Shown: piece by piece, positions 7,971-37,121 of the stretch
Position numbering within the stretch: position 1 is the first letter of the stretch
Layout: each line of letters begins with the position of its first letter
NCBI GenBank assembly: GCA_000004985.1
Contig: GG738867.1
DNA from: Naegleria gruberi
Lineage: Eukaryota
Direction: 5' to 3' (one strand)
DNA: 64,000 bases
The notes under the pieces: model-generated
Seen by the model: only the letters and a program-made list of their open reading frames with translations
Databases searched by the model: none
Told to the model about the DNA's origin: nothing
Position numbers and translations under genes: made by a program

Positions 7971-8876
7971 TTATTTAGCGAGGATTACAACATTAGCTAT
8001 GGAAATTATCTCAATTTCTTCATCATTGTTGCTGATATTGAACTCTCTTCTGGAGACTTGGTCAATTCTGTCCAGTAATTCCTTCTCAGTGGAGGTAACT
8101 TGTGGATTTTCTTTGAGATATTTCTGAACAAGTGTAGCAAACTGATTGCCCATATTGAAAATATTCTGCAATTCAGAATATTTCATTTTCAAGGATTGTG
8201 TCACTTGTCTGATTTCAACATGTTCAAATCCTGCCTCCCTGCAACGTTGCTCAAAAACCTTTGGATCTTGGAGTGCAAATGGAGGTCTATTTTGTTGCAA
8301 CACTTCAAACAAAGCTTGAGATGAGACACGATTTGGAAAATCATCAGTCCAAGAATTCACAAATGCCATTCCTCCCTTCTTCAAAACTCTTTTAATTTCA
8401 GATAATCCTTGCACCATTTTTGGATAAAACATTACTCCCATATTAGAATAGACAATATCAAATGATTCGTCTGGGAATTTCAATTCTTGACCATCCATTA
8501 CTTGAAATTTCAAATTGTCCCAATCAAATTCCACTTGTTTCTCTTCAATTCTTGATTGTTTCTTATACTCTGCTCCTTCAATCATAGATGCAGCAAAGTC
8601 AATCCCATCCAATGCGGAAATCTTGATCTTATCAGGGAGTATCTTCTCATCAACAAATTTGAAAGGTACCAATCCAGTTCCAGTGGCCAAATCAAGAATA
8701 CTAACATTTCTCTCCTCAGTTGTGATGTTAAAGTACAAGTCAATGGATCTTTGAATGAGATCAGATGCAAAGAAATCTAGAAAAATCTTGGACTTTTCCA
8801 TTAATTTGACCTTGTTTTCCCAGTGGTTTTTGTTAAGGTCATGATGTGTAGTGGTTATGGTTGCAGTGTTGGACAT
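7971..8876 (-). CDS. Class I SAM-dependent methyltransferase
   Basis: Motif I LDLATGTG, motif II DIVYSNMGVMF and motif III LKKGGMAFVNSW. The likely true start is MSNTATI at 8876; the upstream part of ORF 7971..9032 looks like a read-through 5'UTR. An alternative start is at 8909. Confidence 0.65.
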   Translation of the reverse strand: MSNTATITTTHHDLNKNHWENKVKLMEKSKIFLDFFASDLIQRSIDLYFNITTEERNVSILDLATGTGLVPFKFVDEKILPDKIKISALDGIDFAASMIEGAEYKKQSRIEEKQVEFDWDNLKFQVMDGQELKFPDESFDIVYSNMGVMFYPKMVQGLSEIKRVLKKGGMAFVNSWTDDFPNRVSSQALFEVLQQNRPPFALQDPKVFEQRCREAGFEHVEIRQVTQSLKMKYSELQNIFNMGNQFATLVQKYLKENPQVTSTEKELLDRIDQVSRREFNISNNDEEIEIISIANVVILAK

Positions 8877-9245: not shown

Positions 9246-10438
9246 TCAAGGTGTTTCTTCACTAACTTTTAACAAAATCTTTCCAGTTGCTTTACGTCCT
9301 TCAATTTCATTATGAGCTTCCTTAATTTCTTCCAAATTGAAAACCTTGTGAATGTTAATATCAATGAGCCCTTGTGAAACCCAGGAAAATAATTTGTGAC
9401 TCTTCTCTTGTAATTCATCAAAGGTGGTTACAAAGTCACCCATTTTAGGTCTTGTAAAATTAATTGAACCTCTTCTTGATAAATCCAAAGGATTAATTAA
9501 ACCAACAGGTCCTGATGCATTACCAAAAGAAATGAATAAACCTCTCACCCCTAAAGAATTGAGTGAAGATTGATAGGTATCCTTTCCAACACCATCAAAG
9601 ACAATATCCACTCCCTTCCCATTGGTAATTTCCTTGACTCTCTCCACAACATCTTCTGTAGAATATTGAATAACATGAGTACAACCCAATTTGAGAGCCA
9701 AATCAACCTTTTCTGGAGATCCAACTGTTCCAATAATTGTGCTACATTTCTTAATCTTGGACATGATTTGAACAAGCAATCTTGATGTACCTCCAGCTGC
9801 AGAGTGAATCAAAACAACGTCTGATCTAATGCTTGGAATGTCAAAAGCCAAATAATAAGCTGTCAATCCATTAATCATACAAGCAACAGAATCCTTCAAA
9901 CTAATTTCACTTGGCAACTTGGCAACACTATTATAATCTACAGCAGCATATTCAGCATATGATCCAGAAGAACTAGAAAAGGCAACACGATCTCCAACTT
10001 TTAGTCCACATTCCTTTGGCACTTGATCACCAATCTTTTCAATTATACCACTTCCTACACAAAATCCAATTTTCAAGTGTTGTGTACATTAAATTAAAAC
10101 GTTAAAATTATTAAATTAACCATCGAACAAATAATTTTCAAATTTTCCAATCATCACAATTTTGATCAAAATAAATCAAAATATTAAATTAATCAAATAT
10201 TGATCAAAAATTATCTTCCTAAATATTTAAATATTAGAAACTAACCATCTTGTCCAAGAACCTTTGGAAGGGATGGAACAGGATACAATCCCGATCTAAA
10301 ATAGGTATCAATGAAATTTACGCTCGAGTAGGCAATTTTGATCAGGACTTGATGGTGGGAAATTTCTGGGATTGGCACATTGGTATCTACTTGTAAAACG
10401 TTCACGTCGCCGGTTTCGTGTATTCTGACTGCTTTCAT
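9246..10438 (-). CDS. NADPH:quinone oxidoreductase / zeta-crystallin (MDR superfamily), 2 exons: 10246..10438, 9249..10054
   Basis: N-terminal MKAVRIHETGDVNVLQV...LGQDG joined through a 191-nt intron (10055..10245, GTTAGT..TGTAG, phase 1) to SGIIEKIGDQV...GDRVAF...AAGGTS (Rossmann NAD(P)-binding). Confidence 0.75.
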
Positions 10439-25452: not shown

Positions 25453-27870
25453 TTAAGTGTTATAATTTCCTCTTCCAACAATTTTATTTCTTTCCAATAG
25501 TTCTTTCACTTGTTTGTTTTTTTCAAATGTAATTTTATCCACTTCCTCAGCTAGTTGAGAGTAACTTTTCAATGGCATGATTTTCTTAAATTCTTCAATT
25601 TCATTGGTAATGTTCAATGTTAAATCTTTAATTTCACCTCGCAAGAATTTCAAAATATTCTCAATTATTAAAAGGTGTAAATAACAATTCAATATTTTGG
25701 TTGAATCTCTTTGAATCATTGTAATGATACATCTGATCAATAGTTCATTAATTCCAACTTCTGGATCGATAGAATGATTGATCAGTTTTTCAATTGCATA
25801 ATGTAATTTCATTTCTCCTTCAGTTGTTGTTATTACAGTATAGAAATACTTTCCATATCCACTAAAGTATGGATAGCCATTATTGTACTTTGAAACATCT
25901 GGATCAGTTACAAATTTTTCATCCAGTTGTAATGGACAATTGGTCAGTAATTTCAAAAAAATACATCCCAAAGAGAAAATATCAGATGAAGTGGTTATTT
26001 GTCCAATATTGTGAGCTAATCTATCGTTATCACCATATTTAAACATGTTGTCAGTGTAATTGTCATGTGAAACCTCAGGAGACATGTAGGCATACTTTCC
26101 ACGTGCAATTGTAATTGAGTGACCTATCTTAATAACTCTTGATGTTTCAAAATCAATAATTTTAAAAGTATCTCCAATTTTAACAATATTTTGCGGATCT
26201 AAATCTCTGTGAGCAATATTATGATCATGAATTGACTTGACTGATCTCAATACTTTGGTGAATATTTCAAACAATTCTATTAATTTGTCCTTGGTTAAGA
26301 AGGTGTCTCGATAAATGTCATTATTTCTGTAAATATAATGTGACAATGATTCCTCTCCAAGCTCCATCACTGAATACAAATGATTTTGAATAACAGCACA
26401 TTCAAAACACTTGATCTTTCCTTCAATATCTGTTCTTTTCAATAAATTAATTGTGTAGTTGGTAGCAGCTTCAGAACCCTCTGGATCATATTTGAATTTC
26501 ATGGCTCGTAAAGATTTTGTTTTTTTGTGAAATACTTTGAAAACGACGCCTTCTGCTCCATATCCTAAAACTGAAATAAAGTCATATTCCATTTTGAAAT
26601 GAATATAGTAATAATTGAGTGCTTTGAAAATTTTTGCTAAATCTCCTCGTAATTCATTGTATTTACACAATATTTGTTTGTAATTCTCAAATGTTTGCTC
26701 ACTTTCAAACCATTTAATGACAAAACTCATAATTTCCATAATTTCCTTTGTTGAATAAAAAGAGGTTTTGAAATTACTTGAAACATTTTCCACAACATTC
26801 TTCAAATCCTTCATGTCTGTTGTTTGGGAAGGATTATCTTTAAGAAAATTATCCAATCTGAAACAAAATAAATGAAAGTTAGCACTTTCTGAAATAGGAA
26901 TATTGTTGGACAATTCTTCGTGGTTCATTTGTTTCAATATTTGGAAGGTGATTAATTTTTCAACAAGTAGTGGTGAATAGGTTTTTTGGTTGAAATAATT
27001 AAATAGTGCGCTTTTGGATTTTGGATTAAATAGTGAACTTAACTCAATAGCAAAATATAAATCCTTTTCTTCCAAATACTTTTTTGAGTATAGTTCAATA
27101 ATATTTGTTGATAGCATTCTATGTAAATCAACACAATCCTCAATGCTTTTGGTAATAGAAGGAGAGAATTCTTTTGCAATCTTGGTATTGTGTTTGAATA
27201 GGGAGAAAATGAAAGGAATATCTCCTTTAAATGAGTTATCAACATGTTCAAGTACCAATCTATTTTGTTTAACAGCTTCCAATACTATTTCTCTATCTTT
27301 TTTAAATGATTCATCTGCACGTTGAAGTGCATTTCCATTTTGTTTAACAGCTTCCAATACAAATTCTCTATCCTTTTTAAAAGATTCGTCAACATATTCA
27401 AGTACCTTTCCATTTTGTTTAACAACATTCAAAACAAAATTTCTATCTTTTTTCAATGATTGATCAGCAAAGTCAAACAAAAATTCATGCAACACAACAA
27501 CTTGCAATAAAAATTGTCTATCTTTTTTCAATGATTCATCCGCATATTTAAGTAACAGTCCATATTGAACTGCAGCATTCCAATCACTATCAGTTTCCTT
27601 TCCTTTAACAGCTTCCAATATTATCTCTCTATCTTTTCTAAGTGATTCATCAGCACATTGAAGTGCCAATCCATTTTGTTTAACAGCTTCCAATACAATT
27701 TCTCTATCTTTTTTGAATGATTCATCTGCATATGTAAGTAACAATCCATTTTGTTTAACAATATTCAATACAAATTCTCTATCTTTTGTACGCTTCAAAA
27801 CTCCCAATACGATATCTTGTAGTTGTTGTTCTTGTTGTTCTGTATTATTGTTATCATTGCTAGCTATCAT
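25453..27870 (-). CDS. Protein kinase-like protein with N-terminal about 9x 31-residue tandem repeats (consensus ADESFKKDREIVLEAVKQNGxAL)
   Basis: Kinase subdomains are VLGYGAEGVVFK, RAMKF, HRDLDPQNIV, DFETS and YMSPEV. Catalytic-loop K is replaced by D and DFG is DFE. The repeat array covers about 26940..27790. Confidence 0.7.
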   Translation of the reverse strand: MIASNDNNNTEQQEQQLQDIVLGVLKRTKDREFVLNIVKQNGLLLTYADESFKKDREIVLEAVKQNGLALQCADESLRKDREIILEAVKGKETDSDWNAAVQYGLLLKYADESLKKDRQFLLQVVVLHEFLFDFADQSLKKDRNFVLNVVKQNGKVLEYVDESFKKDREFVLEAVKQNGNALQRADESFKKDREIVLEAVKQNRLVLEHVDNSFKGDIPFIFSLFKHNTKIAKEFSPSITKSIEDCVDLHRMLSTNIIELYSKKYLEEKDLYFAIELSSLFNPKSKSALFNYFNQKTYSPLLVEKLITFQILKQMNHEELSNNIPISESANFHLFCFRLDNFLKDNPSQTTDMKDLKNVVENVSSNFKTSFYSTKEIMEIMSFVIKWFESEQTFENYKQILCKYNELRGDLAKIFKALNYYYIHFKMEYDFISVLGYGAEGVVFKVFHKKTKSLRAMKFKYDPEGSEAATNYTINLLKRTDIEGKIKCFECAVIQNHLYSVMELGEESLSHYIYRNNDIYRDTFLTKDKLIELFEIFTKVLRSVKSIHDHNIAHRDLDPQNIVKIGDTFKIIDFETSRVIKIGHSITIARGKYAYMSPEVSHDNYTDNMFKYGDNDRLAHNIGQITTSSDIFSLGCIFLKLLTNCPLQLDEKFVTDPDVSKYNNGYPYFSGYGKYFYTVITTTEGEMKLHYAIEKLINHSIDPEVGINELLIRCIITMIQRDSTKILNCYLHLLIIENILKFLRGEIKDLTLNITNEIEEFKKIMPLKSYSQLAEEVDKITFEKNKQVKELLERNKIVGRGNYNT
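26940..27790 (-). repeat. Coding tandem repeat, about 93-nt period (31 aa), about 9 copies
   Basis: Repeated ...ADESFKKDREIVLEAVKQNG... units are visible in the translation. The antisense ORF 27014..27325 is a by-product. Confidence 0.7.
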
Positions 27871-28841: not shown

Positions 28842-30662
28842 ATGAACCCGACACAACCGAGCAGCAATCCCAATCTCCTGCAGGTACAAGGCTCTGCAAA
28901 CCATAATGTCAGTGGTGCTAGTTTAAGCTTTGATGATGTTGGTAGTCATCATAGCGGATTTGGAGGCATTGGTTTCAATGGAGAGTCAAGCCAGGTAGAT
29001 CCCTCCGTTACACAAAAGAGTCGTTCTAGTTCCAATAATACGAATAATCCTTTGGTTATATTTGAGAGGAGTTTTTCGATATTCATCTCGGCGTTAAGGA
29101 ATACTCTAGAATCAACAACATACATATATTCTGTTCTGCTGTATATTTGGATAATTTTGCAAACATTTTCTTTATCTTCCTATTATGAATACAGGTGGGG
29201 AAATATTGCAGGATGGATAATGAGAGGAATAGCAGCAATATGGACATTAGGGTTTGATTTTATGCCATATAATGTAAGTATATAGTGATTAGAGGTGTAA
29301 TGATTAATATTGTGTTTCCTTAATGATTGTTACTACTCAATTTACTGGTTCTATTTTAACAACTTCATCAACCCTAAAATCCTTTTCATCCCAATGAATA
29401 ATTATTAACTTGCAATCTCTCAACAGGGTCATATTGTTATAATATCTCTGTCTTTGGCCCTTAACATTGTAACATTATTAATGTTCTTATATTGCAAATC
29501 TGCGCTTGGAAATGGCAGTAAACATTGGGATAGACTAAAACGATACACAAGAAAGATGTGTGTCATTCATCTCGTATTTTCTGTTCCGATGATGTATTGC
29601 TATGGAGTGTTTTGGCACTGTGATTATACGACACTGAAATTGTTCGCCTTCTCTGAAGTTGAATGTTGGTCTCCTTCTAATAGTGGCCTTGCATCAATAT
29701 CAATGTTGGGAGCATTAATGACTTTCATTATTACATTAATATCAAGTTTGGTTCTTGTAGATATCAATCCAGCAAGTAAGGGAATATTTGTGAGTTTTAC
29801 TCCATTCTTTTTTGCTTCTCTAGTTGCTTCGAATACTCTTTTTGCATTCCTTCAACAAGCTATTCCTCCTTACATTTACTATGCTGTCCCATCATTATTT
29901 ATTGTGAAACAGTTATTGTTGTGTGTAGCGCTTGTTCAGAGATATCCATTCTTTAGAAGAGTGGAAAATTCAGTCATGTTTGGGGTATTGGTAGGCTCTG
30001 GAATGTGGGCAGTAGCAAATCTGGTTGTCTTCTCTGTAAATAGTAATGTTCCTTCAATTGATCTGGAAACATCAGGACTTGCAATAATGGGTGTTGGTTT
30101 CTTGTTGCCCATCACTGGGATCGTTCTCGGTTTTGTTGGTATTGAAATTGCCACTCGTGTCATTGTTTCAAAAGTAAAACATGATCTCGATAACTTAATG
30201 AGCAGTCCTCAAGGTGAACTGGAAGAAATGAAGTATTCTCATTTATTTATTCAGTGGGCCATGAAAGATCATTCCCTTGCAGAGTACGTGCGGTATCTTA
30301 TTAATGAAGTTTCTTCAACCAAGGTGGATCTCTCATTCATCGATTTGATAACGAGTGCTTGTTATATGCACTATTTGGTGGAAGATTTTCAAACCAGTGC
30401 ACTCTTGTTGCTTAAAAGATCTGAAGAAATGTTTGATTCTGTTTGGTTCATTGACAGATTAGAACTCCAAATAAGAAAGAGAGAAATCACTAGCCACATT
30501 CATGCTGAAAGCGCTGAAGTGTCTGAGTACTTGACAAAAGTTGTAGCTAAACAAGACACAATTCTAATTCTCCAAAGATCATTCTGGAAAATTGTCCTAT
30601 CAGAAGAAATATCTGAATTGGCGATGGAACAAGCAGGAAGAAAGATATGGTCAACTCTTTGA
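28842..30662 (+). CDS. Multi-pass membrane protein, 2 exons: 28842..~29272, 29427..30659; possibly the N-terminal part of the downstream PAS-cyclase gene
   Basis: Exon 1 ends ...FMPYN followed by GTAAGT. A 154-nt intron runs to TCTCAACAG|GGTCATATT, phase 0. At least 8 predicted TM helices are followed by a soluble about 170-aa region. The stop overlaps the start of the next ORF in another frame. Coordinates are +/-1. Confidence 0.5.
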
Positions 30663-33346
30663 ATGAATACAGATATATTCAAAAAAATTTAGAGCTCTAT
30701 GGAACTCTTGATACTGAGAGGTTTGAATCCATTAAAGGAAGATTGGCTTGGTATGCCAGTATGATAAATGAAATGGTGAAAACAGTACAATCTAATTATT
30801 TCACAGATGAAATGAAAAATGATATGCTTGGAACTAAGAGTGAAGTGTTTCTTCCTTCTCTTTCTGCTGACGGTAGCTATACGTTCAGCACAAAGAATAT
30901 GACATATTCAGAATTGATGCATTTGATCGGTTCTGTTACATCAGTATTAGCCAATAGTACTTTAGAAACTTTTAGGAATACCACAAACTTTGAGTACATC
31001 TTTTTGTGGAAGAACAGGTTACTCTTTATTGATTATTTCGAGGTCTTTTGCGATATTTTGACTGCAAGAAACTTTGAACATTTGAATGCATGGTCCAACA
31101 TTATTATTGGTGTAATGTCAACCCTGATAGGTCTATTTACCATATATTTGATCGTGTTTTGGGTAATTGTTGGTGGCTATATGAAGGCATCATCCAAGCT
31201 ATTCAAGCTTTACAAGTTTTTACCAAAGGATGAAGTAGGAAAGCTTTTCCATGAATTGGAGAAAAAGACAAGCCAGCTTAATCAAAGAATTGAGTTTAGA
31301 AAGTCCAATCTATTATCTCCTTCAAACGTTATGATCTACTTTTTGGCTTTAGTCTTCTTACTAACTTATATTTCAGTTGGATTGATATTTTTTGAGGCCC
31401 TTTACAACTCTGTTTACAACAGACAAGCAATTTCCAAAGTTCAACATGGTACAGAAATTACGCACGATTTGACCAAGATCACCTTTGGTTCATTCCAATC
31501 CTTATTTGATGATACTGATTATCTTCAATATACACACGATGAATTGTATGAATTTGCAAAGCGGTACAATACCATGGACGAGTACACTGATTTCAGATAC
31601 GGAACAGAGGATGCAGGTTATTATAATTTAATTGGTATGACATCTTCTATAGATACACAAGTTGAGCACCGTGGAACAGATGCTAAATGCAAGAATTACA
31701 CTTTGATTAATTTTGATATTTCACAAATAGAATGCATGAGCATGGATGAATTGATTAATGCAAATGCTTACTATTTAGCTAAACAAGTAGAAGATATTTA
31801 CAAGAAGAAATATTCAGAAGAACAATTGTTGGCAACTTTTTGGAAGAATTACTTGGTATACATTCAGACAAGAAAAAAGAGTTGGGGAATCATGCTTGAA
31901 TCTGTTGATTATTTCACCTCTAGAATTAATCAGAGAATAATAAGTGGTTTGGCTTGTGCCTTGCCTGCTCTGGTTGCTCTGTTAGCGTATATGGCTTTTA
32001 GGACTTATAGTAGAATTAATAAGGAAAGATCTCTCTTCTTATTAATGCTCTTCCAAGTTCCTTGTGATGTTCTAGATAATCTAGATCCAATCAAGAATTA
32101 CATTTTTAATAGAAGCTTTGATTCTGGAAAGAAGAATAAGCAATTGTCATTGGATGGAAGAAGTGAGGTTAAGGCAGTTTGTGATGCTGCTGTGGATGGA
32201 ATGATTCTTTGTACCTCTGTTGGTGTGATTGAAATCTTTAACACTGCCTCGGAAACAATGTTTGGATACAAGTCCACAGATGTACTTGGATTGTCTCTTA
32301 CCAAACTGTTTGAAAAGGAAGGCAGAGAAAAGGTAGAGAATATTCTGGCCAGATTGAGACAATCTAATGAAACAATGGGAGAAACTCTAGAATTGGTTTG
32401 TTTAAGAAAAAATGACAGAAAGTTCCCAACAAGAGTTTCCTTATCAGTTAGTTTGCTAAGCACTTCCAATAACATGAAAAAATCTGTCATTACATGCTTT
32501 ATCAAGGATATCACCACCGAATTGAAACACAATAATTTGATTAAGGAAGAAAAGATGAAGTCTGAAGCACTCTTGTTGAATATTCTCCCTGAACCAGTGG
32601 CCAATAGACTGAAGGCAGGTGAAACCAATATATATGAAAACTTTAAGGATGTTACCTGTTTCTTTAGCGACATTGTTGGTTTTACAACCATGTCATCAAC
32701 CATGGAACCAAATCAAGTGGTTGCCATGTTGAACGAAATTGTCAATCAATTTGATATCCTTTGTGACTCGTATGATTTAGAAAAAATCAAAACTATTGGT
32801 GATGCATACTTTTGTTGTGGTGGTTTACACAATTGTATGCAAAGTGATCACCCTGAGAAAGTTGTTAGATTTGCCATTGATACATTGGGTGTCATTTATA
32901 TTTACAATACTCAAAACAATACTACTGTGAATATTCGTGTTGGTGTACATACTGGCAGTGTAGTAGCTGGTGTTTTAGGTATAAAGAAGTTTGCTTATGA
33001 TTTGTGGGGAGATGCTGTAAATACTGCCTCTCGTATGGAATCAACCGGTTTACCTGGTAGAGTTCAAATATCAAGAGACACTTATGAAAGAGTGCACGAT
33101 TTGTTCGAATTTGATTTGAGAGAAATTGAAGTTAAAGGAAAAGGTAAAATGAAGACATATGTGGTAAAGGAAAAACATCATCAAAATCCAAACAAGGAAT
33201 CTCCAGAAATTACCAGTACCACTATTCTAAGAAACAGACTGGGTGAATCAAGTTCTGCAGCAAATTTATTCCAAGCTCAACAAAATATTGACCATGAAAA
33301 TTCAGTTCCAAATTTACTTCAATTAACCATTCCAGATAAATATTAA
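30647..33346 (+). CDS. Class III nucleotidyl (adenylyl/guanylyl) cyclase with TM segments and a PAS domain
   Basis: Three TM helices; a PAS-like segment (VCDAAVDGMILCTSVGVIEIFNTASETMFGYKSTDVLGLSLTKLF); then a cyclase domain with FFSDIVGFTTMSS, KIKTIGDAYFCCGGL, IRVGVHTGSVVAGVLG and WGDAVNTASRMES. Confidence 0.8.
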   Translation: MVNSLNEYRYIQKNLELYGTLDTERFESIKGRLAWYASMINEMVKTVQSNYFTDEMKNDMLGTKSEVFLPSLSADGSYTFSTKNMTYSELMHLIGSVTSVLANSTLETFRNTTNFEYIFLWKNRLLFIDYFEVFCDILTARNFEHLNAWSNIIIGVMSTLIGLFTIYLIVFWVIVGGYMKASSKLFKLYKFLPKDEVGKLFHELEKKTSQLNQRIEFRKSNLLSPSNVMIYFLALVFLLTYISVGLIFFEALYNSVYNRQAISKVQHGTEITHDLTKITFGSFQSLFDDTDYLQYTHDELYEFAKRYNTMDEYTDFRYGTEDAGYYNLIGMTSSIDTQVEHRGTDAKCKNYTLINFDISQIECMSMDELINANAYYLAKQVEDIYKKKYSEEQLLATFWKNYLVYIQTRKKSWGIMLESVDYFTSRINQRIISGLACALPALVALLAYMAFRTYSRINKERSLFLLMLFQVPCDVLDNLDPIKNYIFNRSFDSGKKNKQLSLDGRSEVKAVCDAAVDGMILCTSVGVIEIFNTASETMFGYKSTDVLGLSLTKLFEKEGREKVENILARLRQSNETMGETLELVCLRKNDRKFPTRVSLSVSLLSTSNNMKKSVITCFIKDITTELKHNNLIKEEKMKSEALLLNILPEPVANRLKAGETNIYENFKDVTCFFSDIVGFTTMSSTMEPNQVVAMLNEIVNQFDILCDSYDLEKIKTIGDAYFCCGGLHNCMQSDHPEKVVRFAIDTLGVIYIYNTQNNTTVNIRVGVHTGSVVAGVLGIKKFAYDLWGDAVNTASRMESTGLPGRVQISRDTYERVHDLFEFDLREIEVKGKGKMKTYVVKEKHHQNPNKESPEITSTTILRNRLGESSSAANLFQAQQNIDHENSVPNLLQLTIPDKY

Positions 33347-33386: not shown

Positions 33387-34445
33387 TTACTTTCCAAGTC
33401 TTTTGTTATCCTCTTCAATAAGTTCCTTATAATATCCCTCCCAATCAATTTTCATATTTCCTCCATATTCGGTTGCCAATTGATCAGCATCAACATAGTT
33501 CAACAAATCTTGTTGCTTGTTCACCATGACGTACTTGGCTTTGAGTTCTGTAGATAAAAAGGCGCTGAGGAAAGCCCAAATAATATTAATAGTCCAAGGA
33601 GCATTCATAATCAAGACTCTACCCAATCTTTCAGGATAGTAAAAACCCAAATCATCAAAAATATCTTTCTGTAATAATTGTTAAAAGTCTCTCCCCTAGC
33701 TAACACTTACCATTCTTTTAACCAAGGACAATGAAATTGCAGAAACATCAACAATCCAATTCATTTGGAATGCTGTTCCTTTAAATTCTCTTCTTCTGAA
33801 ATTTCTTTCATGCAAGTAAACCAAATGACGGAACTTGAGCTGTTTGTTTTCCTCGGAATTATCCAACAAATCCTTGTTTGTCCACATATAGAAAATAGGC
33901 ATATCATTTTGACAAATACCTTGATCAATCATCATATTAGAAGTACATGTTGTGTTAGTAAATTCTTCCATTCTAATCTCCTCTGGTTTATAAACAGCTC
34001 TCCAATTAACCATTTTCACAATCAATCGAGTAGCTTCATCCAATTTCCATTCAAACCCTCTGGAATATCTGAAAAAGGCAAAATTATCCAAAGTCAGCTC
34101 TCTCAGCTCATTCCACTTATCGGCATCAATTTGTAATTCATTCTTTTCATTCTTTACCAACTCTGGAATATTCTCCAAAACATTTATACCCATAAATCTC
34201 TTTACAATCTCATCACCATCCTTCACAATCACACGGATCACCATCATCATCAAATTATGAATAAATTTTAATTTTTCATCATTCATCACCGGAGAAACAT
34301 AAGTTGGATGAAGATCGCACATTTCCTTCAGTGTTGGTAAGTCAACAAGAGTTACTAGTTGTTGATCAGCAGCAGCAGATGATGATGATGATGAATTTAC
34401 TGCCTGATCAGAACATAAAGATGACGAAGGAACAAGTCGCAACAT
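33387..34445 (-). CDS. Sec14/CRAL-TRIO phosphatidylinositol-transfer protein, 2 exons: 33711..34445, 33390..33668
   Basis: N-terminal FAFFRYSRGFEWKLDEATRLIVKMVNWR (CRAL-TRIO_N). The C-terminal exon encodes GFYYPERLGRVLIMNAPW...ATEYGG. A 42-nt intron (33669..33710, GTAAGT..TTACAG, phase 0) joins ORFs 33696..34445 and 33387..33650. Start is in an A-rich context. Confidence 0.75.
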
Positions 34446-34727: not shown

Positions 34728-37121
34728 ATGTCTCAAGAAGATCAAGAGGTTATCGTGATTGTAGAAGACCAAGAACAACAGAAAGATTCTCTTCCTTTCG
34801 ATCAAGCAAGAATAGAACAAACTAAACTATTCGGAACTAATCAAACTAATTCCTTGTTTCCAACCAATGATCAACCAAAAACAAGATTCGTCCTCTCCAT
34901 TGATGGTGGAGGTGTCAGAGGAACCCTCGCAGGTTCAATCCTTGCCACTCTCGAAAAGGAAGTCATCCAAGAAATTGCCAAACATTTTGCAGAGCTAGGA
35001 GAAAAACCACCAACCAATAACTTTAGTTTAACTTCATGTTTCGATTTGGTAGTCGGTACATCAACAGGTGGAATCATTGCATTAGGTGCTGGTATTTCTA
35101 ATAATGGAGGACCTTTCGATTTTAAATTTTCTGCCTCTGATTTGGGAGATTTATATACGAATAATAGTTCACAGATATTTAGTAAGGAATTTAAACATGG
35201 AAAATTGAGAGAATTTTTGATTTCTTCGAGATATGATCCAACTGGATTGGAAATTGTCATGGAAAAGTATTTTGGAAAGGCCAAGTTGAGTGATTTGGTT
35301 ATTCCAGTGATGGTAACTTCATATGATTTAAATAGACAAGAATTGGTTGTGTTTGATAGTGAAATGGCTAAACCTAAAGGAGAATTGACTATGAGACAGT
35401 TACCTTCTGATTATTATTTGAAAGATATTGCACTTGCCACTTCAGCAGCTCCAACTTTCTTTCCAATTAGAACGATTGAGTCAATTACAGATCCAAGTGA
35501 TAAACATGATTATATTGATGCTGCAGTAACTGCTAATAATCCAACCATGTTGGCTTATTTGAAAGCAAAGAAAATGTATCCAGGCGATTCCATTAATATT
35601 GTTTCATTGGGTTGTGGTTATGAAGGTATTGATAGACCTTCATTGGAAGGAAAGATTGAATGGGCCAAGACAATTTCCTCTCTCATGATTCAAGGAGCAT
35701 CTAATTTGACTGAATATTTAATGCAACAAATGGTAGATTTGTCACCTTTGGATAAATATTGGAGAATTGATGTGAAATTGGATCAGGCAGCTTTAGATTT
35801 GACATCTGAAGATTATTTGAAGAGTTTAAAGATATTGGGATCAAGTTTGAGAACCAACGATGGTAATGCCTATAAGAATATTAGAGATACCATTATTGAC
35901 TTTTATAGAAGTAAGAGTTTTTATACTTGTTTCAAGTTGATTGAAAAAGTTGAAAGTCAATTGATGAGTCCAAAGTACAGAAAGAATGATCAGGTTAGAA
36001 TTGACCTTTCAGATGTTGGATTGACTCCAATTGCATTATGGGAAGTGGTTCACTATTTGAAAAATCAAGTTGACTATGAAAAAATTTACAAAATTGATTT
36101 GAGTGGACAAACTATAACTGTTGAAATATTAGAACAATTGCTCCATTTGAGAACTGAAGAAGCTCCTGAAAAATTGAAAAAGAAACATTGTTCTGTTGAG
36201 AAACTAACTGTCAAGACTCAAATCTTGGAAGAGAAATGTTTAATTCACAAATTAATCATGAGAGATTGTCAATTGAGTGGTCAAGTCCTTGCATGGCTTG
36301 TCAATAAGAGTAAATTGTTTGATGTCTTGGATTTGGGAGGAAGTGTCAAATTGAGTGAATGTGATTCTGGATTTTTGGATTCTCTCTGTCAATTGTCTGA
36401 AAGAGGAAATGTCATTCTAGAAGGAAAGGCCTATTGGGTGATTGGTAATCATTACAGATACTTTGAGAAATTCGATCATTGCAGAAAATCTTACAAGAAA
36501 GGAAGTGAATTAGGCGATGTTGATTGTGAATATTTGGATTGCTTAATGGGATATTTCACAGATAATTTACAAGATCGAAATGAGCAACTTCATCAAATAT
36601 TGAAGAATAGAAATGAAAGAGTTGGATATTTACTTGGCTTGGCAATTGAACAACGAAACCTTTCGAATAATGAACAAGCTCAACAATCAAGAAGTTCAAT
36701 CGATTCTCCATCAAGTAGCTCACCATCCAGTTCATCTCCTATGAAAATTCCACAAGAAAACGATCCACTACCACCTGAATTTGTCGAATATGAAATTGAG
36801 AATCATCATGCCCTATGTGTCGATTGGTATGTCCGAGTTTCTCAATCCATATCCACAAAAGATTCTTCACAACCATGGATTGATAAGGCAAAACTTCGAC
36901 TTTCAAAAGGAAAGACACTTCTTCCAGCTGCATCCAGTCTTGGCTTGGTGTTGTATCCACAAGGTGCAAATACCACAATTGGAGAAGCTATTCTTTCAAA
37001 AAAGGAAAGAAAAGATCAGCAAAAAAAGGAAAAACAAGAAGAAAAGGAAAGAGAAAAAGAAAGAAAACGATTGGAAAAAATGGAAAAGAAGGAATTAAAG
37101 CAAAAGATGAAGAATCAATAG
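34728..37121 (+). CDS. Patatin-like phospholipase domain protein with long C-terminal extension and K/E-rich tail
   Basis: Oxyanion-hole DGGGVRG, nucleophile elbow GTSTGG, and Asp in DAAVTANNP. The C-terminus is low-complexity (KKEKQEEKEREKERK). Confidence 0.7.
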   Translation: MSQEDQEVIVIVEDQEQQKDSLPFDQARIEQTKLFGTNQTNSLFPTNDQPKTRFVLSIDGGGVRGTLAGSILATLEKEVIQEIAKHFAELGEKPPTNNFSLTSCFDLVVGTSTGGIIALGAGISNNGGPFDFKFSASDLGDLYTNNSSQIFSKEFKHGKLREFLISSRYDPTGLEIVMEKYFGKAKLSDLVIPVMVTSYDLNRQELVVFDSEMAKPKGELTMRQLPSDYYLKDIALATSAAPTFFPIRTIESITDPSDKHDYIDAAVTANNPTMLAYLKAKKMYPGDSINIVSLGCGYEGIDRPSLEGKIEWAKTISSLMIQGASNLTEYLMQQMVDLSPLDKYWRIDVKLDQAALDLTSEDYLKSLKILGSSLRTNDGNAYKNIRDTIIDFYRSKSFYTCFKLIEKVESQLMSPKYRKNDQVRIDLSDVGLTPIALWEVVHYLKNQVDYEKIYKIDLSGQTITVEILEQLLHLRTEEAPEKLKKKHCSVEKLTVKTQILEEKCLIHKLIMRDCQLSGQVLAWLVNKSKLFDVLDLGGSVKLSECDSGFLDSLCQLSERGNVILEGKAYWVIGNHYRYFEKFDHCRKSYKKGSELGDVDCEYLDCLMGYFTDNLQDRNEQLHQILKNRNERVGYLLGLAIEQRNLSNNEQAQQSRSSIDSPSSSSPSSSSPMKIPQENDPLPPEFVEYEIENHHALCVDWYVRVSQSISTKDSSQPWIDKAKLRLSKGKTLLPAASSLGLVLYPQGANTTIGEAILSKKERKDQQKKEKQEEKEREKERKRLEKMEKKELKQKMKNQ

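What the first reader, a model, noticed from the sequence alone, without database searches (positions are those of the whole stretch)
28842..33346. Multi-TM gene abutting a PAS/class III cyclase gene with zero intergenic distance: probable single fused gene
ORF 29454..30662 stops at 30660..30662, while the cyclase ORF starts at 30647 in the +2 frame. The cyclase frame is open back to 30617. All other genes here have intergenic spacers of more than 100 nt. A 1-nt indel in ggaagaaag (30636..30644) would give a protein of about 1440 aa: more than 8 TM, a linker, 3 TM, PAS, then the cyclase. This is an unusual sensor-cyclase architecture.
Basis: inference. Interest (0 to 1): 0.55.

Follow-up and report, generated by a model that had tools for sequence, protein, structure and literature searches.

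The report
Broken Naegleria membrane adenylate cyclase gene
The two abutting reading frames are the front and back halves of one Naegleria gruberi membrane adenylate cyclase gene from an already annotated family, and this copy has lost about 0.55 kb of conserved coding sequence at the junction, so it is a broken copy rather than a new kind of sensor.

Summary
The upstream ORF stops at 30660-30662. The PAS/cyclase ORF starts at 30647 in another frame that is open from 30617. A forced join gives 1450 aa.

The window is Naegleria gruberi. Relatives of the upstream half are mostly 1500-1800 aa single proteins: multi-TM block, TPR_TmcB, four TM helices, PAS, class III cyclase. They are already annotated in N. 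gruberi, N. lovaniensis and Willaertia magna, so the fused architecture is the family norm and not unusual.

The junction is not a 1-nt slip. All 18 aligned relatives, and a further environmental contig (L002) checked separately, carry roughly 180 residues there that the window lacks: the conserved second half of TPR_TmcB, a linker and one TM helix. The breakpoint maps to 30645-30648. The ATG at 30647 is an internal Met codon in relatives. The loss is out of frame by itself.

Restoring the frame would still leave half a TPR domain and three TM helices instead of four. Both halves keep 95% of family-invariant residues, and the cyclase catalytic residues are complete. The break is therefore recent, allele-specific, or an assembly or cloning deletion. 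These tools cannot tell which.

Low interest: a damaged member of a known, uncharacterised family.

The parts
28842..29273 (+). Exon 1 of the gene: N-terminal low-complexity region and the first conserved hydrophobic block (LLYIWIILQTFSLSSYYEYRWG...)
   Evidence: ATG at 28842 and GTAAGT donor at 29274. The translation aligns with L001 and P0002 across the splice. The annotated model P0001 uses an earlier donor near 28995 and skips this conserved block.
29274..29426 (+). Intron 1, 153 nt, GTAAGT...CAG, phase 0
   Evidence: Sequence read. The frame and the homology are continuous once it is removed.
29427..30497 (+). Exon 2: multi-TM block (about 6-7 hydropathy peaks) and the cytosolic helical region before the TPR
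   Evidence: 47-48% identity to P0002 and L001. Hydropathy. 61 relatives found.
30498..30647 (+). Remnant first half of the TPR_TmcB domain (…SFWKIVLSEEISELAMEQAGRKI)
   Evidence: This stretch aligns with P0002 residues about 509-558. In P0002 the Pfam TPR_TmcB match spans residues 509-615. The window copy gives no TPR_TmcB match even at E<=10.
30645..30648 (+). Deletion breakpoint. Upstream-frame homology ends at AGA AAG AT(A). Downstream-frame homology begins at ATG GTC AAC.
   Evidence: Codon-level comparison with L001 and L002. All 18 aligned relatives have about 100-145 residues in the alignment gap plus an adjacent TM helix here, and the window has none. L002 has the segment too. In L001 the segment is 537 coding nt plus a 50-nt intron.
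30660..30662 (+). Premature stop codon (TGA), reached four codons after the breakpoint in the upstream frame
30647..33346 (+). Downstream half of the gene: loop domain 1, TM b, TM c, loop domain 2, TM d, PAS, class III cyclase. The ATG at 30647 corresponds to an internal Met codon in relatives.
   Evidence: 57% identity to L001 residues 805-1521. Pfam. Codon mapping.
31100..31156 (+). TM helix b (IIIGVMSTLIGLFTIYLIV)
   Evidence: Hydropathy peak of 2.48. Equivalent helix present in all relatives.
31334..31390 (+). TM helix c (IYFLALVFLLTYISVGLIF)
   Evidence: Hydropathy peak of 2.45.
31937..31993 (+). TM helix d (IISGLACALPALVALLAYM)
   Evidence: Hydropathy peak of 2.18.
32195..32515 (+). PAS domain
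   Evidence: PF13426 PAS_9, E=4.6e-16, ORF2 residues 517-623.
32636..33169 (+). Class III adenylate cyclase catalytic domain with a complete catalytic residue set
   Evidence: PF00211, E=7.3e-58, ORF2 residues 664-841. The alignment to both halves of AC9 shows the two metal-binding Asp residues plus Lys, Asp, Asn and Arg.

Best explanation
The two ORFs are the two halves of one Naegleria gruberi gene from a heterolobosean family of receptor-type adenylate cyclases.

The family architecture is an N-terminal multi-TM block, a cytosolic TPR_TmcB domain, four TM helices (a-d) that frame two loops of about 200 aa, a cytosolic PAS domain, and a homodimer-type class III cyclase domain.

In this sequence, about 0.54 kb of coding DNA is absent between window nt 30646 and 30647, probably together with a roughly 50-nt intron. 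The lost part encoded the conserved second half of TPR_TmcB, a charged linker and TM helix a. The loss was 3n+1 nt of coding sequence. The upstream frame therefore runs into a stop four codons later (30660-30662). The cyclase half continues in another frame from what was an internal Met codon.

I infer that the locus as assembled is a recently inactivated copy, meaning a young pseudogene or a null allele. It is neither a functional 1450-aa sensor nor two independent genes.

Shown: common origin of the two halves, the missing segment, the breakpoint, the absence of a splice or slippery-site rescue, and intact conservation of both halves.

Inferred: that the deletion is real in the organism, that it is recent, and that it abolishes function. 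The last point rests on the halved TPR domain and the odd TM count, which would put either the TPR or the PAS-cyclase on the wrong side of the membrane.
For: Organism and current models:
- 100% matches to N. gruberi P0001 and P0003.

One gene in relatives:
- L001 splices into a 1521-aa stop-free protein that covers both halves.
- Of 30 relatives scanned, 27 have TPR_TmcB, 18 have PAS and 17 have Guanylate_cyc.
- Named full-length members are N. gruberi XP_002670998.1 and XP_002673642.1, N. lovaniensis XP_044541885.1 and W. magna KAL9649878.1.

Missing segment:
- The upstream half aligns with L001 up to nt 8658, and the cyclase half aligns from nt 9261. About 600 nt of L001 correspond to 17 nt of the window.
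- All 18 aligned relatives have residues in the gap where the window has none. L002 has the segment too.
- The segment is not found elsewhere in the window.
- No TPR_TmcB match in the window copy at E<=10, against 9e-11 in paralog P0002.

Breakpoint and frame.

TM count: four helices between TPR and PAS is the family consensus, and the window has three.

No rescue:
- None of 79 formally possible GT..AG introns has the GTAAGT/GTAGGT donor seen in all six verified introns.
- There is no X_XXY_YYZ slippery heptamer.

Recency:
- The window keeps 19/20 and 100/105 family-invariant residues, equal to intact members.
- The cyclase catalytic residues are complete.

No spacer: GC at the junction is 0.32-0.33, with no AT-rich dip.
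Against: - There is no independent N. gruberi sequence or transcript for this locus, so an assembly or cloning deletion cannot be excluded.
- Both halves are perfectly intact ORFs of 555 and 899 codons. That also fits an artefact, or continued function of one or both halves.
- L001, L002 and P0002 are roughly equidistant relatives at 40-48% identity, and L001 shares no synteny with the window. No strict ortholog was examined, so the timing of the loss is inferred only from the lack of decay.
- The TM counts come from a simple hydropathy scan, not from a dedicated topology predictor.
Confidence: 0.6

Rival explanations
1. Assembly or cloning artefact. The organism carries an intact gene of about 1630 aa, and the roughly 0.6-kb segment was lost during clone propagation or assembly of the draft genome.
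For: - Both halves show no decay at all: 95% of family-invariant residues are kept and the catalytic residues are complete. An intact gene would look exactly like this.
- Only one assembly of this locus was available.
Against: - There are no N runs in the window.
- There are no repeats at or around the junction that could cause a collapse.
- The missing segment is unique sequence and is absent from the rest of the 64-kb window.
- From general knowledge, not tested here: a clean 0.6-kb internal deletion is an uncommon error in a multi-fold shotgun assembly.
Confidence: 0.22
2. Functional gene fission. After the deletion, the two halves are both expressed: a truncated TmcB-like membrane protein, and a separate 3-TM PAS adenylate cyclase. 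The second would be made from an internal promoter or by reinitiation at ATG 30647, 13 nt before the upstream stop. This matches the current two-gene annotation.
For: - Both ORFs are intact, and both are annotated as separate genes (P0001 and P0003).
- An ATG lies 13 nt upstream of the stop.
- Shorter TmcB-like relatives without a cyclase exist.
Against: - There is no spacer and no AT-rich dip at the junction.
- The ATG corresponds to an internal Met codon in relatives.
- The upstream product ends in the middle of the TPR_TmcB domain.
- The downstream product has three TM helices and about 150 aa of a normally extracytosolic loop at its N-terminus with no signal sequence. A cytosolic PAS-cyclase would then need an unusual insertion (inference).
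- No relative shows a split at this point.
Confidence: 0.1
3. A single functional protein of about 1450 aa is encoded, and the frame change is a 1-nt sequencing error or a programmed frameshift in ggaagaaag. The shorter linker would then be a lineage-specific in-frame variant.
For: - The frames overlap by 45 nt, and a 1-nt correction joins them into 1450 aa.
- Both halves are well conserved.
Against: - This needs two independent events, a 179-codon loss and a 1-nt error. One out-of-frame deletion explains everything.
- The product would lack half of a conserved domain and one of four TM helices.
- There is no slippery heptamer.
- No relative has such a short form.
Confidence: 0.06
4. An unconventional intron spanning the junction joins the two frames in the mRNA.
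For: 79 GT..AG combinations would formally give an open frame, for example 30594..30640 (47 nt) or 30650..30720 (71 nt). Introns of 45-61 nt do exist in relatives.
Against: - No candidate has the GTAAGT/GTAGGT donor found in all six verified introns.
- Every candidate removes residues conserved in relatives.
- None restores the missing TPR, linker and TM-a segment.
Confidence: 0.02

Closest known systems
Full-length N. gruberi paralogs XP_002670998.1 (1609 aa) and XP_002673642.1 (1520 aa), annotated only as 'predicted protein'
   Same: Same organism and same domain order: a multi-TM block, TPR_TmcB, TM helices, PAS, Guanylate_cyc. Alignable end to end with the joined window halves.
   Different: They are single uninterrupted proteins with a complete TPR_TmcB domain and TM helix a. 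They are only about 25-28% identical to the window's upstream half.
Close sub-clade: N. gruberi P0002 (685 aa, partial) and the environmental contigs L001 (Logan SRR29240419) and L002 (ENA ERZ27315067)
   Same: 40-48% identical in the N-terminal half. L001 is 57% identical in the cyclase half. The blocks on both sides of the junction are the same.
   Different: All three contain the roughly 180-residue segment that the window lacks. L001 has five short introns, and one of them (after '…YYE') is at the same position in L002. The window has one intron at a different position. L001 shares no synteny with the window.
Willaertia magna KAL9649878.1 (1620 aa) and N. lovaniensis XP_044541885.1 (1595 aa)
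   Same: Same full architecture in other Heterolobosea: TPR_TmcB at 489-591, PAS at 1248-1355 and cyclase at 1395-1572 in KAL9649878.1.
   Different: Intact single genes, 26-30% identical to the window's upstream half.
Dictyostelium TmcB/TmcC ('tiny macrocysts') proteins, the namesakes of Pfam PF25474 TPR_TmcB
   Same: They share the TPR_TmcB domain that 27 of 30 relatives of the window gene carry.
   Different: From memory, TmcB/TmcC have no PAS or cyclase domain. This was not tested here, and no paper on them was found in the library. The window copy itself no longer scores for PF25474.
Mammalian membrane adenylate cyclases, for example AC9 (PDB 7pd4)
   Same: Class III catalytic fold. The window domain aligns with both C1 and C2 at E about 4e-68 and carries the catalytic residues of both.
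   Different: Mammalian enzymes are pseudo-heterodimers, with two 6-TM bundles and C1 plus C2 in one chain. The Naegleria family has a single catalytic domain, so it presumably works as a homodimer. It also has a PAS domain and an unrelated TmcB-like membrane module.

Membership tests
Heterolobosean TmcB-like / PAS / class III cyclase family (e.g. XP_002670998.1, KAL9649878.1) | N-terminal multi-TM block homologous to family members | tested here: met
   phmmer gave 61 relatives, 24 of them at E<=1e-10. Alignment. 19 of 20 invariant positions are kept.
Heterolobosean TmcB-like / PAS / class III cyclase family (e.g. XP_002670998.1, KAL9649878.1) | Complete TPR_TmcB domain (PF25474) after the TM block | tested here: not met
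   No PF25474 match at E<=10 in the window copy. P0002, P0013 and P0026 match at 9e-11 to 1.6e-18. The second half of the domain falls in the missing segment.
Heterolobosean TmcB-like / PAS / class III cyclase family (e.g. XP_002670998.1, KAL9649878.1) | Four TM helices (a-d) between the TPR and PAS domains | tested here: not met
   Hydropathy shows four strong peaks in most of the 21 relatives scanned. The window has three (b, c, d). Helix a lies in the missing segment.
Heterolobosean TmcB-like / PAS / class III cyclase family (e.g. XP_002670998.1, KAL9649878.1) | C-terminal PAS plus Guanylate_cyc domains | tested here: met
   PAS_9 at E=4.6e-16 and PF00211 at E=7.3e-58.
Heterolobosean TmcB-like / PAS / class III cyclase family (e.g. 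XP_002670998.1, KAL9649878.1) | All modules encoded in one continuous reading frame after splicing | tested here: not met
   Stop at 30660-30662 and a frame change. No credible intron or slippery site.
Class III nucleotidyl cyclases, adenylate-specific, homodimeric type | Two metal-binding Asp residues, a substrate-specifying Lys and Asp, and a transition-state Asn and Arg, all in one domain | tested here: met
   Alignment to AC9 C1 (FSDIVGFT, IGDAY) and C2 (KTIGD, YDLWGDAVNTASR). The roles of these residues are from established knowledge of class III cyclases.
Class III nucleotidyl cyclases, adenylate-specific, homodimeric type | Catalytic activity (cAMP synthesis) | not testable with these tools
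   Needs an enzyme assay.
Programmed -1 ribosomal frameshift site | X_XXY_YYZ slippery heptamer in the overlap of the two frames | tested here: not met
   No such heptamer in 30600-30662.
Spliceosomal intron of this lineage | GTAAGT/GTAGGT donor and AG acceptor that join the two frames without removing conserved residues | tested here: not met
   79 formal candidates, none with the consensus donor, and all remove conserved sequence.

The most novel reading that the evidence does not exclude
The deletion is real and both products are used. The cell would make a truncated TmcB-like membrane protein and a separately translated 3-TM PAS adenylate cyclase. The cyclase would be made by reinitiation at the ATG 13 nt before the upstream stop, or from a promoter inside the upstream coding region. 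That would be a caught-in-the-act gene fission, showing that the TmcB-like membrane module and the cyclase module can work as separate polypeptides.
Probability: 0.07. Interest if true: 0.5.

Novelty: new member of a known kind. Interest (0 to 1): 0.2.

Why it matters
- Annotation: the public N. gruberi annotation treats this locus as two unrelated 'predicted proteins' (462 and 857 aa). The evidence here shows they are the two halves of one disrupted cyclase gene. The first-exon splice of the upstream model is also wrong.
- Family definition: the analysis defines the standard architecture of a sizeable heterolobosean family that is annotated but uncharacterised. The architecture is a TmcB-like membrane module, TPR, a 4-TM double-loop module, PAS and an adenylate cyclase. 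This is useful background for cAMP signalling in Naegleria, including the pathogen N. fowleri.
- Limits: the break is an ordinary event in a large, fast-turning-over gene family, or else an assembly flaw. It opens no new biological question unless the two halves prove to be expressed separately.

Tried and rejected
1. Simple 1-nt indel: rejected. Relatives show about 180 residues missing at the junction.
2. Intron rescue: an exhaustive GT..AG scan found no candidate with the lineage's donor consensus.
3. Programmed frameshift: no slippery heptamer.
4. Missing segment relocated within the window: tblastn with the L001 segment and the P0002 tail found nothing better than E=7.
5. Synteny, to establish orthology of L001: tblastx of its upstream 6.6 kb against the window found nothing. 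L001, P0002 and the window are about equidistant.
6. Genomic context of P0001 and P0002: neither is on record.
7. Independent N. gruberi DNA for the junction: the exact left-flank 26-mer gave no hit in metagenome contigs. A protein-guided scan of the same collection found no relative.
8. Repeats that could explain an assembly collapse or a recombination: none of note.
9. Literature on TmcB: the library returned only unrelated uses of the term. The Naegleria pangenome paper (PMC9928731) reports at least 81 cyclases but does not describe this architecture.
10. The third homolog search, structure prediction and fold search were not used, because they could not decide between a real deletion and an artefact.


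Full report
**What is in the sequence**

The window is Naegleria gruberi. The two ORFs are 100% identical to the annotated 'predicted proteins' P0001 (462 aa) and P0003 (857 aa) from one 424-kb contig.

- ORF 29454..30662 ends in TGA at 30660-30662.
- The PAS/cyclase ORF begins with ATG at 30647 in a different frame.
- That frame is open from 30617, because TGA lies at 30614-30616.

The upstream gene has a first exon at 28842..29273. It is joined to 29427 by a 153-nt GTAAGT...CAG phase-0 intron. Homology to relatives runs straight through that splice.

ORF2 contains three hydrophobic helices, then a PAS domain (residues 517-623, E=4.6e-16), then a class III cyclase domain (residues 664-841, E=7.3e-58).

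**The two halves belong to one gene**

A full HMMER scan of 1.84 billion representative proteins with the upstream half found 61 relatives. Many are 1500-1800 aa long, with the match near their N-terminus.

I scanned 30 of them against Pfam. TPR_TmcB (PF25474) is in 27, PAS in 18, and the cyclase catalytic domain in 17.

The named full-length members include:
- Willaertia magna KAL9649878.1 (1620 aa)
- N. lovaniensis XP_044541885.1 (1595 aa)
- N. gruberi XP_002670998.1 (1609 aa) and XP_002673642.1 (1520 aa)

A Logan contig from an unidentified relative (L001) carries the closest available homolog of the cyclase half. After removing five short GTAAGT/GTAGGT...AG introns of 45-61 nt, it gives a 1521-aa product with no stop codon. 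That product runs from the multi-TM N-terminus into the cyclase domain, where the contig ends.

The fused architecture is therefore real. It is also the ordinary, already annotated architecture of a heterolobosean cyclase family, so it is not unusual.

**The junction is a deletion, not a 1-nt slip**

- By tblastn, the upstream half aligns with L001 up to nt 8658. This corresponds to window nt about 30647.
- The cyclase half aligns from L001 nt 9261. This corresponds to window nt about 30665.
- About 600 nt of L001 therefore correspond to 17 nt of the window.

The N. gruberi paralog P0002 aligns up to '...AMEQAGRKI'. It then continues for 127 residues that have no counterpart in ORF2.

In a MAFFT alignment with 18 relatives, every one has about 100-145 residues in the gap columns plus an adjacent TM helix. 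The window has none. A third close relative, the ENA contig L002, also has the whole segment. Its intron sits at the same position as one in L001.

The missing part has three components:
- the most conserved stretch of the TPR_TmcB domain (KTVLRxYAxFxExFxFxKExAxELYxEAxxxEEEES)
- a linker with an NRVxP motif
- a TM helix, called helix a here

In line with this, PF25474 is undetectable in the window copy even at E<=10. In P0002 it matches residues 509-615, which straddle the break at residue 558. The segment is nowhere else in the window.

**The breakpoint**

At codon level:
- Upstream-frame homology ends at AGA AAG AT(A), which reads R-K-I. L001 has AGA AAG ATC.
- Downstream-frame homology starts at ATG GTC AAC, which reads M-V-N-S-L-N-E-Y-R-Y. 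L001 has M-A-T-V-C-E-Y-R-Y.

The ATG at 30647 is therefore an internal Met codon of the ancestral gene. The two blocks share the A at 30647. The equivalent L001 segment is 537 coding nt plus a 50-nt intron, so a loss of 3n+1 coding nt explains the frame change on its own. No separate indel in ggaagaaag is needed.

**No rescue by splicing or frameshifting**

There are 79 GT..AG combinations that would formally give an open frame. None has the GTAAGT/GTAGGT donor seen in all six verified introns. All of them remove conserved residues, and none restores the lost segment. The overlap contains no X_XXY_YYZ slippery heptamer.

**Consequences for the protein**

The family consensus is four TM helices between the TPR and PAS domains, spaced roughly 200, 70 and 200 aa apart. 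The window has three.

An even number is needed for both the TPR and the PAS-cyclase to be cytosolic. A frame-corrected 1450-aa protein would have the wrong parity and half a TPR domain. This step is inference from a simple hydropathy scan.

A stand-alone ORF2 would begin with about 150 aa of a loop that normally lies outside the cytosol, with no signal sequence.

**Age of the break**

A leave-one-out test used alignment columns that are at least 85% conserved across the family. The window keeps 19 of 20 such residues in the N-terminal half and 100 of 105 in the C-terminal half. That matches or exceeds the intact members, which range from 0.67 to 1.00.

The cyclase domain retains the two metal-binding Asp residues and the Lys, Asp, Asn and Arg set expected of an active homodimeric adenylate cyclase.

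There is no AT-rich spacer at the junction. There are no N runs. No repeats are present that would explain a collapse.

The break is therefore one of three things: very recent, allele-specific, or an artefact of cloning or assembly. I found no independent N. gruberi sequence to settle this.

**Verdict**

| Explanation | Probability |
|---|---|
| Recent out-of-frame deletion giving a young pseudogene or null allele | about 0.6 |
| Assembly or cloning artefact | about 0.22 |
| Functional fission into two genes | about 0.1 |
| Unconventional intron | about 0.02 |

Under every one of these readings, the statement that both ORFs descend from one gene and that about 180 codons are missing between them is well supported (about 0.9).

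The finding is a correct observation of an ordinary defect in a member of a known, uncharacterised family. Its practical value is an annotation correction.

Noticed in passing
window 28842-29426: The public model P0001 splices from a donor near 28995 (CAG|GTAGAT) to 29427. This skips about 93 codons that are conserved in P0002, L001 and L002 (LLYIWIILQTFSLSSYYEYRWG...DFMPYN). Homology supports the GTAAGT donor at 29274 instead.
   Followed up: yes
window 30647-30775: The public model P0003 starts at ATG 30773 (MVKTVQ...), 42 codons downstream of ATG 30647. Both are internal Met codons of the ancestral gene, so neither is a genuine start.
   Followed up: partly
window 33387-34445 (- strand): A convergent two-exon gene. 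Its last exon (33390-33650) matches the C-terminal part of a CRAL/TRIO domain (E=2.1e-17). Its stop codon lies only 40 nt from the cyclase stop at 33346, so the two 3' UTRs must be tiny or must overlap.
   Followed up: partly
window 25453-27870 (- strand): An 805-aa protein with five DUF4116 repeats (E=7.7e-68) followed by a protein kinase domain. This repeat-kinase combination is expanded in Naegleria (the expansion is from memory, not tested here).
   Followed up: no
window 34728-37121 (+ strand): A 797-aa protein with an N-terminal patatin-like phospholipase domain (E=4.8e-19) and a long lysine- and glutamate-rich tail.
   Followed up: no
L001 6701-11528 and L002 977-4489: L001 has five introns of 45-61 nt where the N. 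gruberi gene has one, at a different position. One L001 intron (after '...YYE', inside the segment missing from the window) is at the same position in L002. This suggests extensive intron loss in the N. gruberi copy.
   Followed up: partly
L001 1360-5761: Upstream of the L001 cyclase gene lie a split G-alpha gene, a mitochondrial carrier gene and a Pelota/eRF1-like gene. None of them has a counterpart in the 64-kb window, so the loci are not syntenic.
   Followed up: yes
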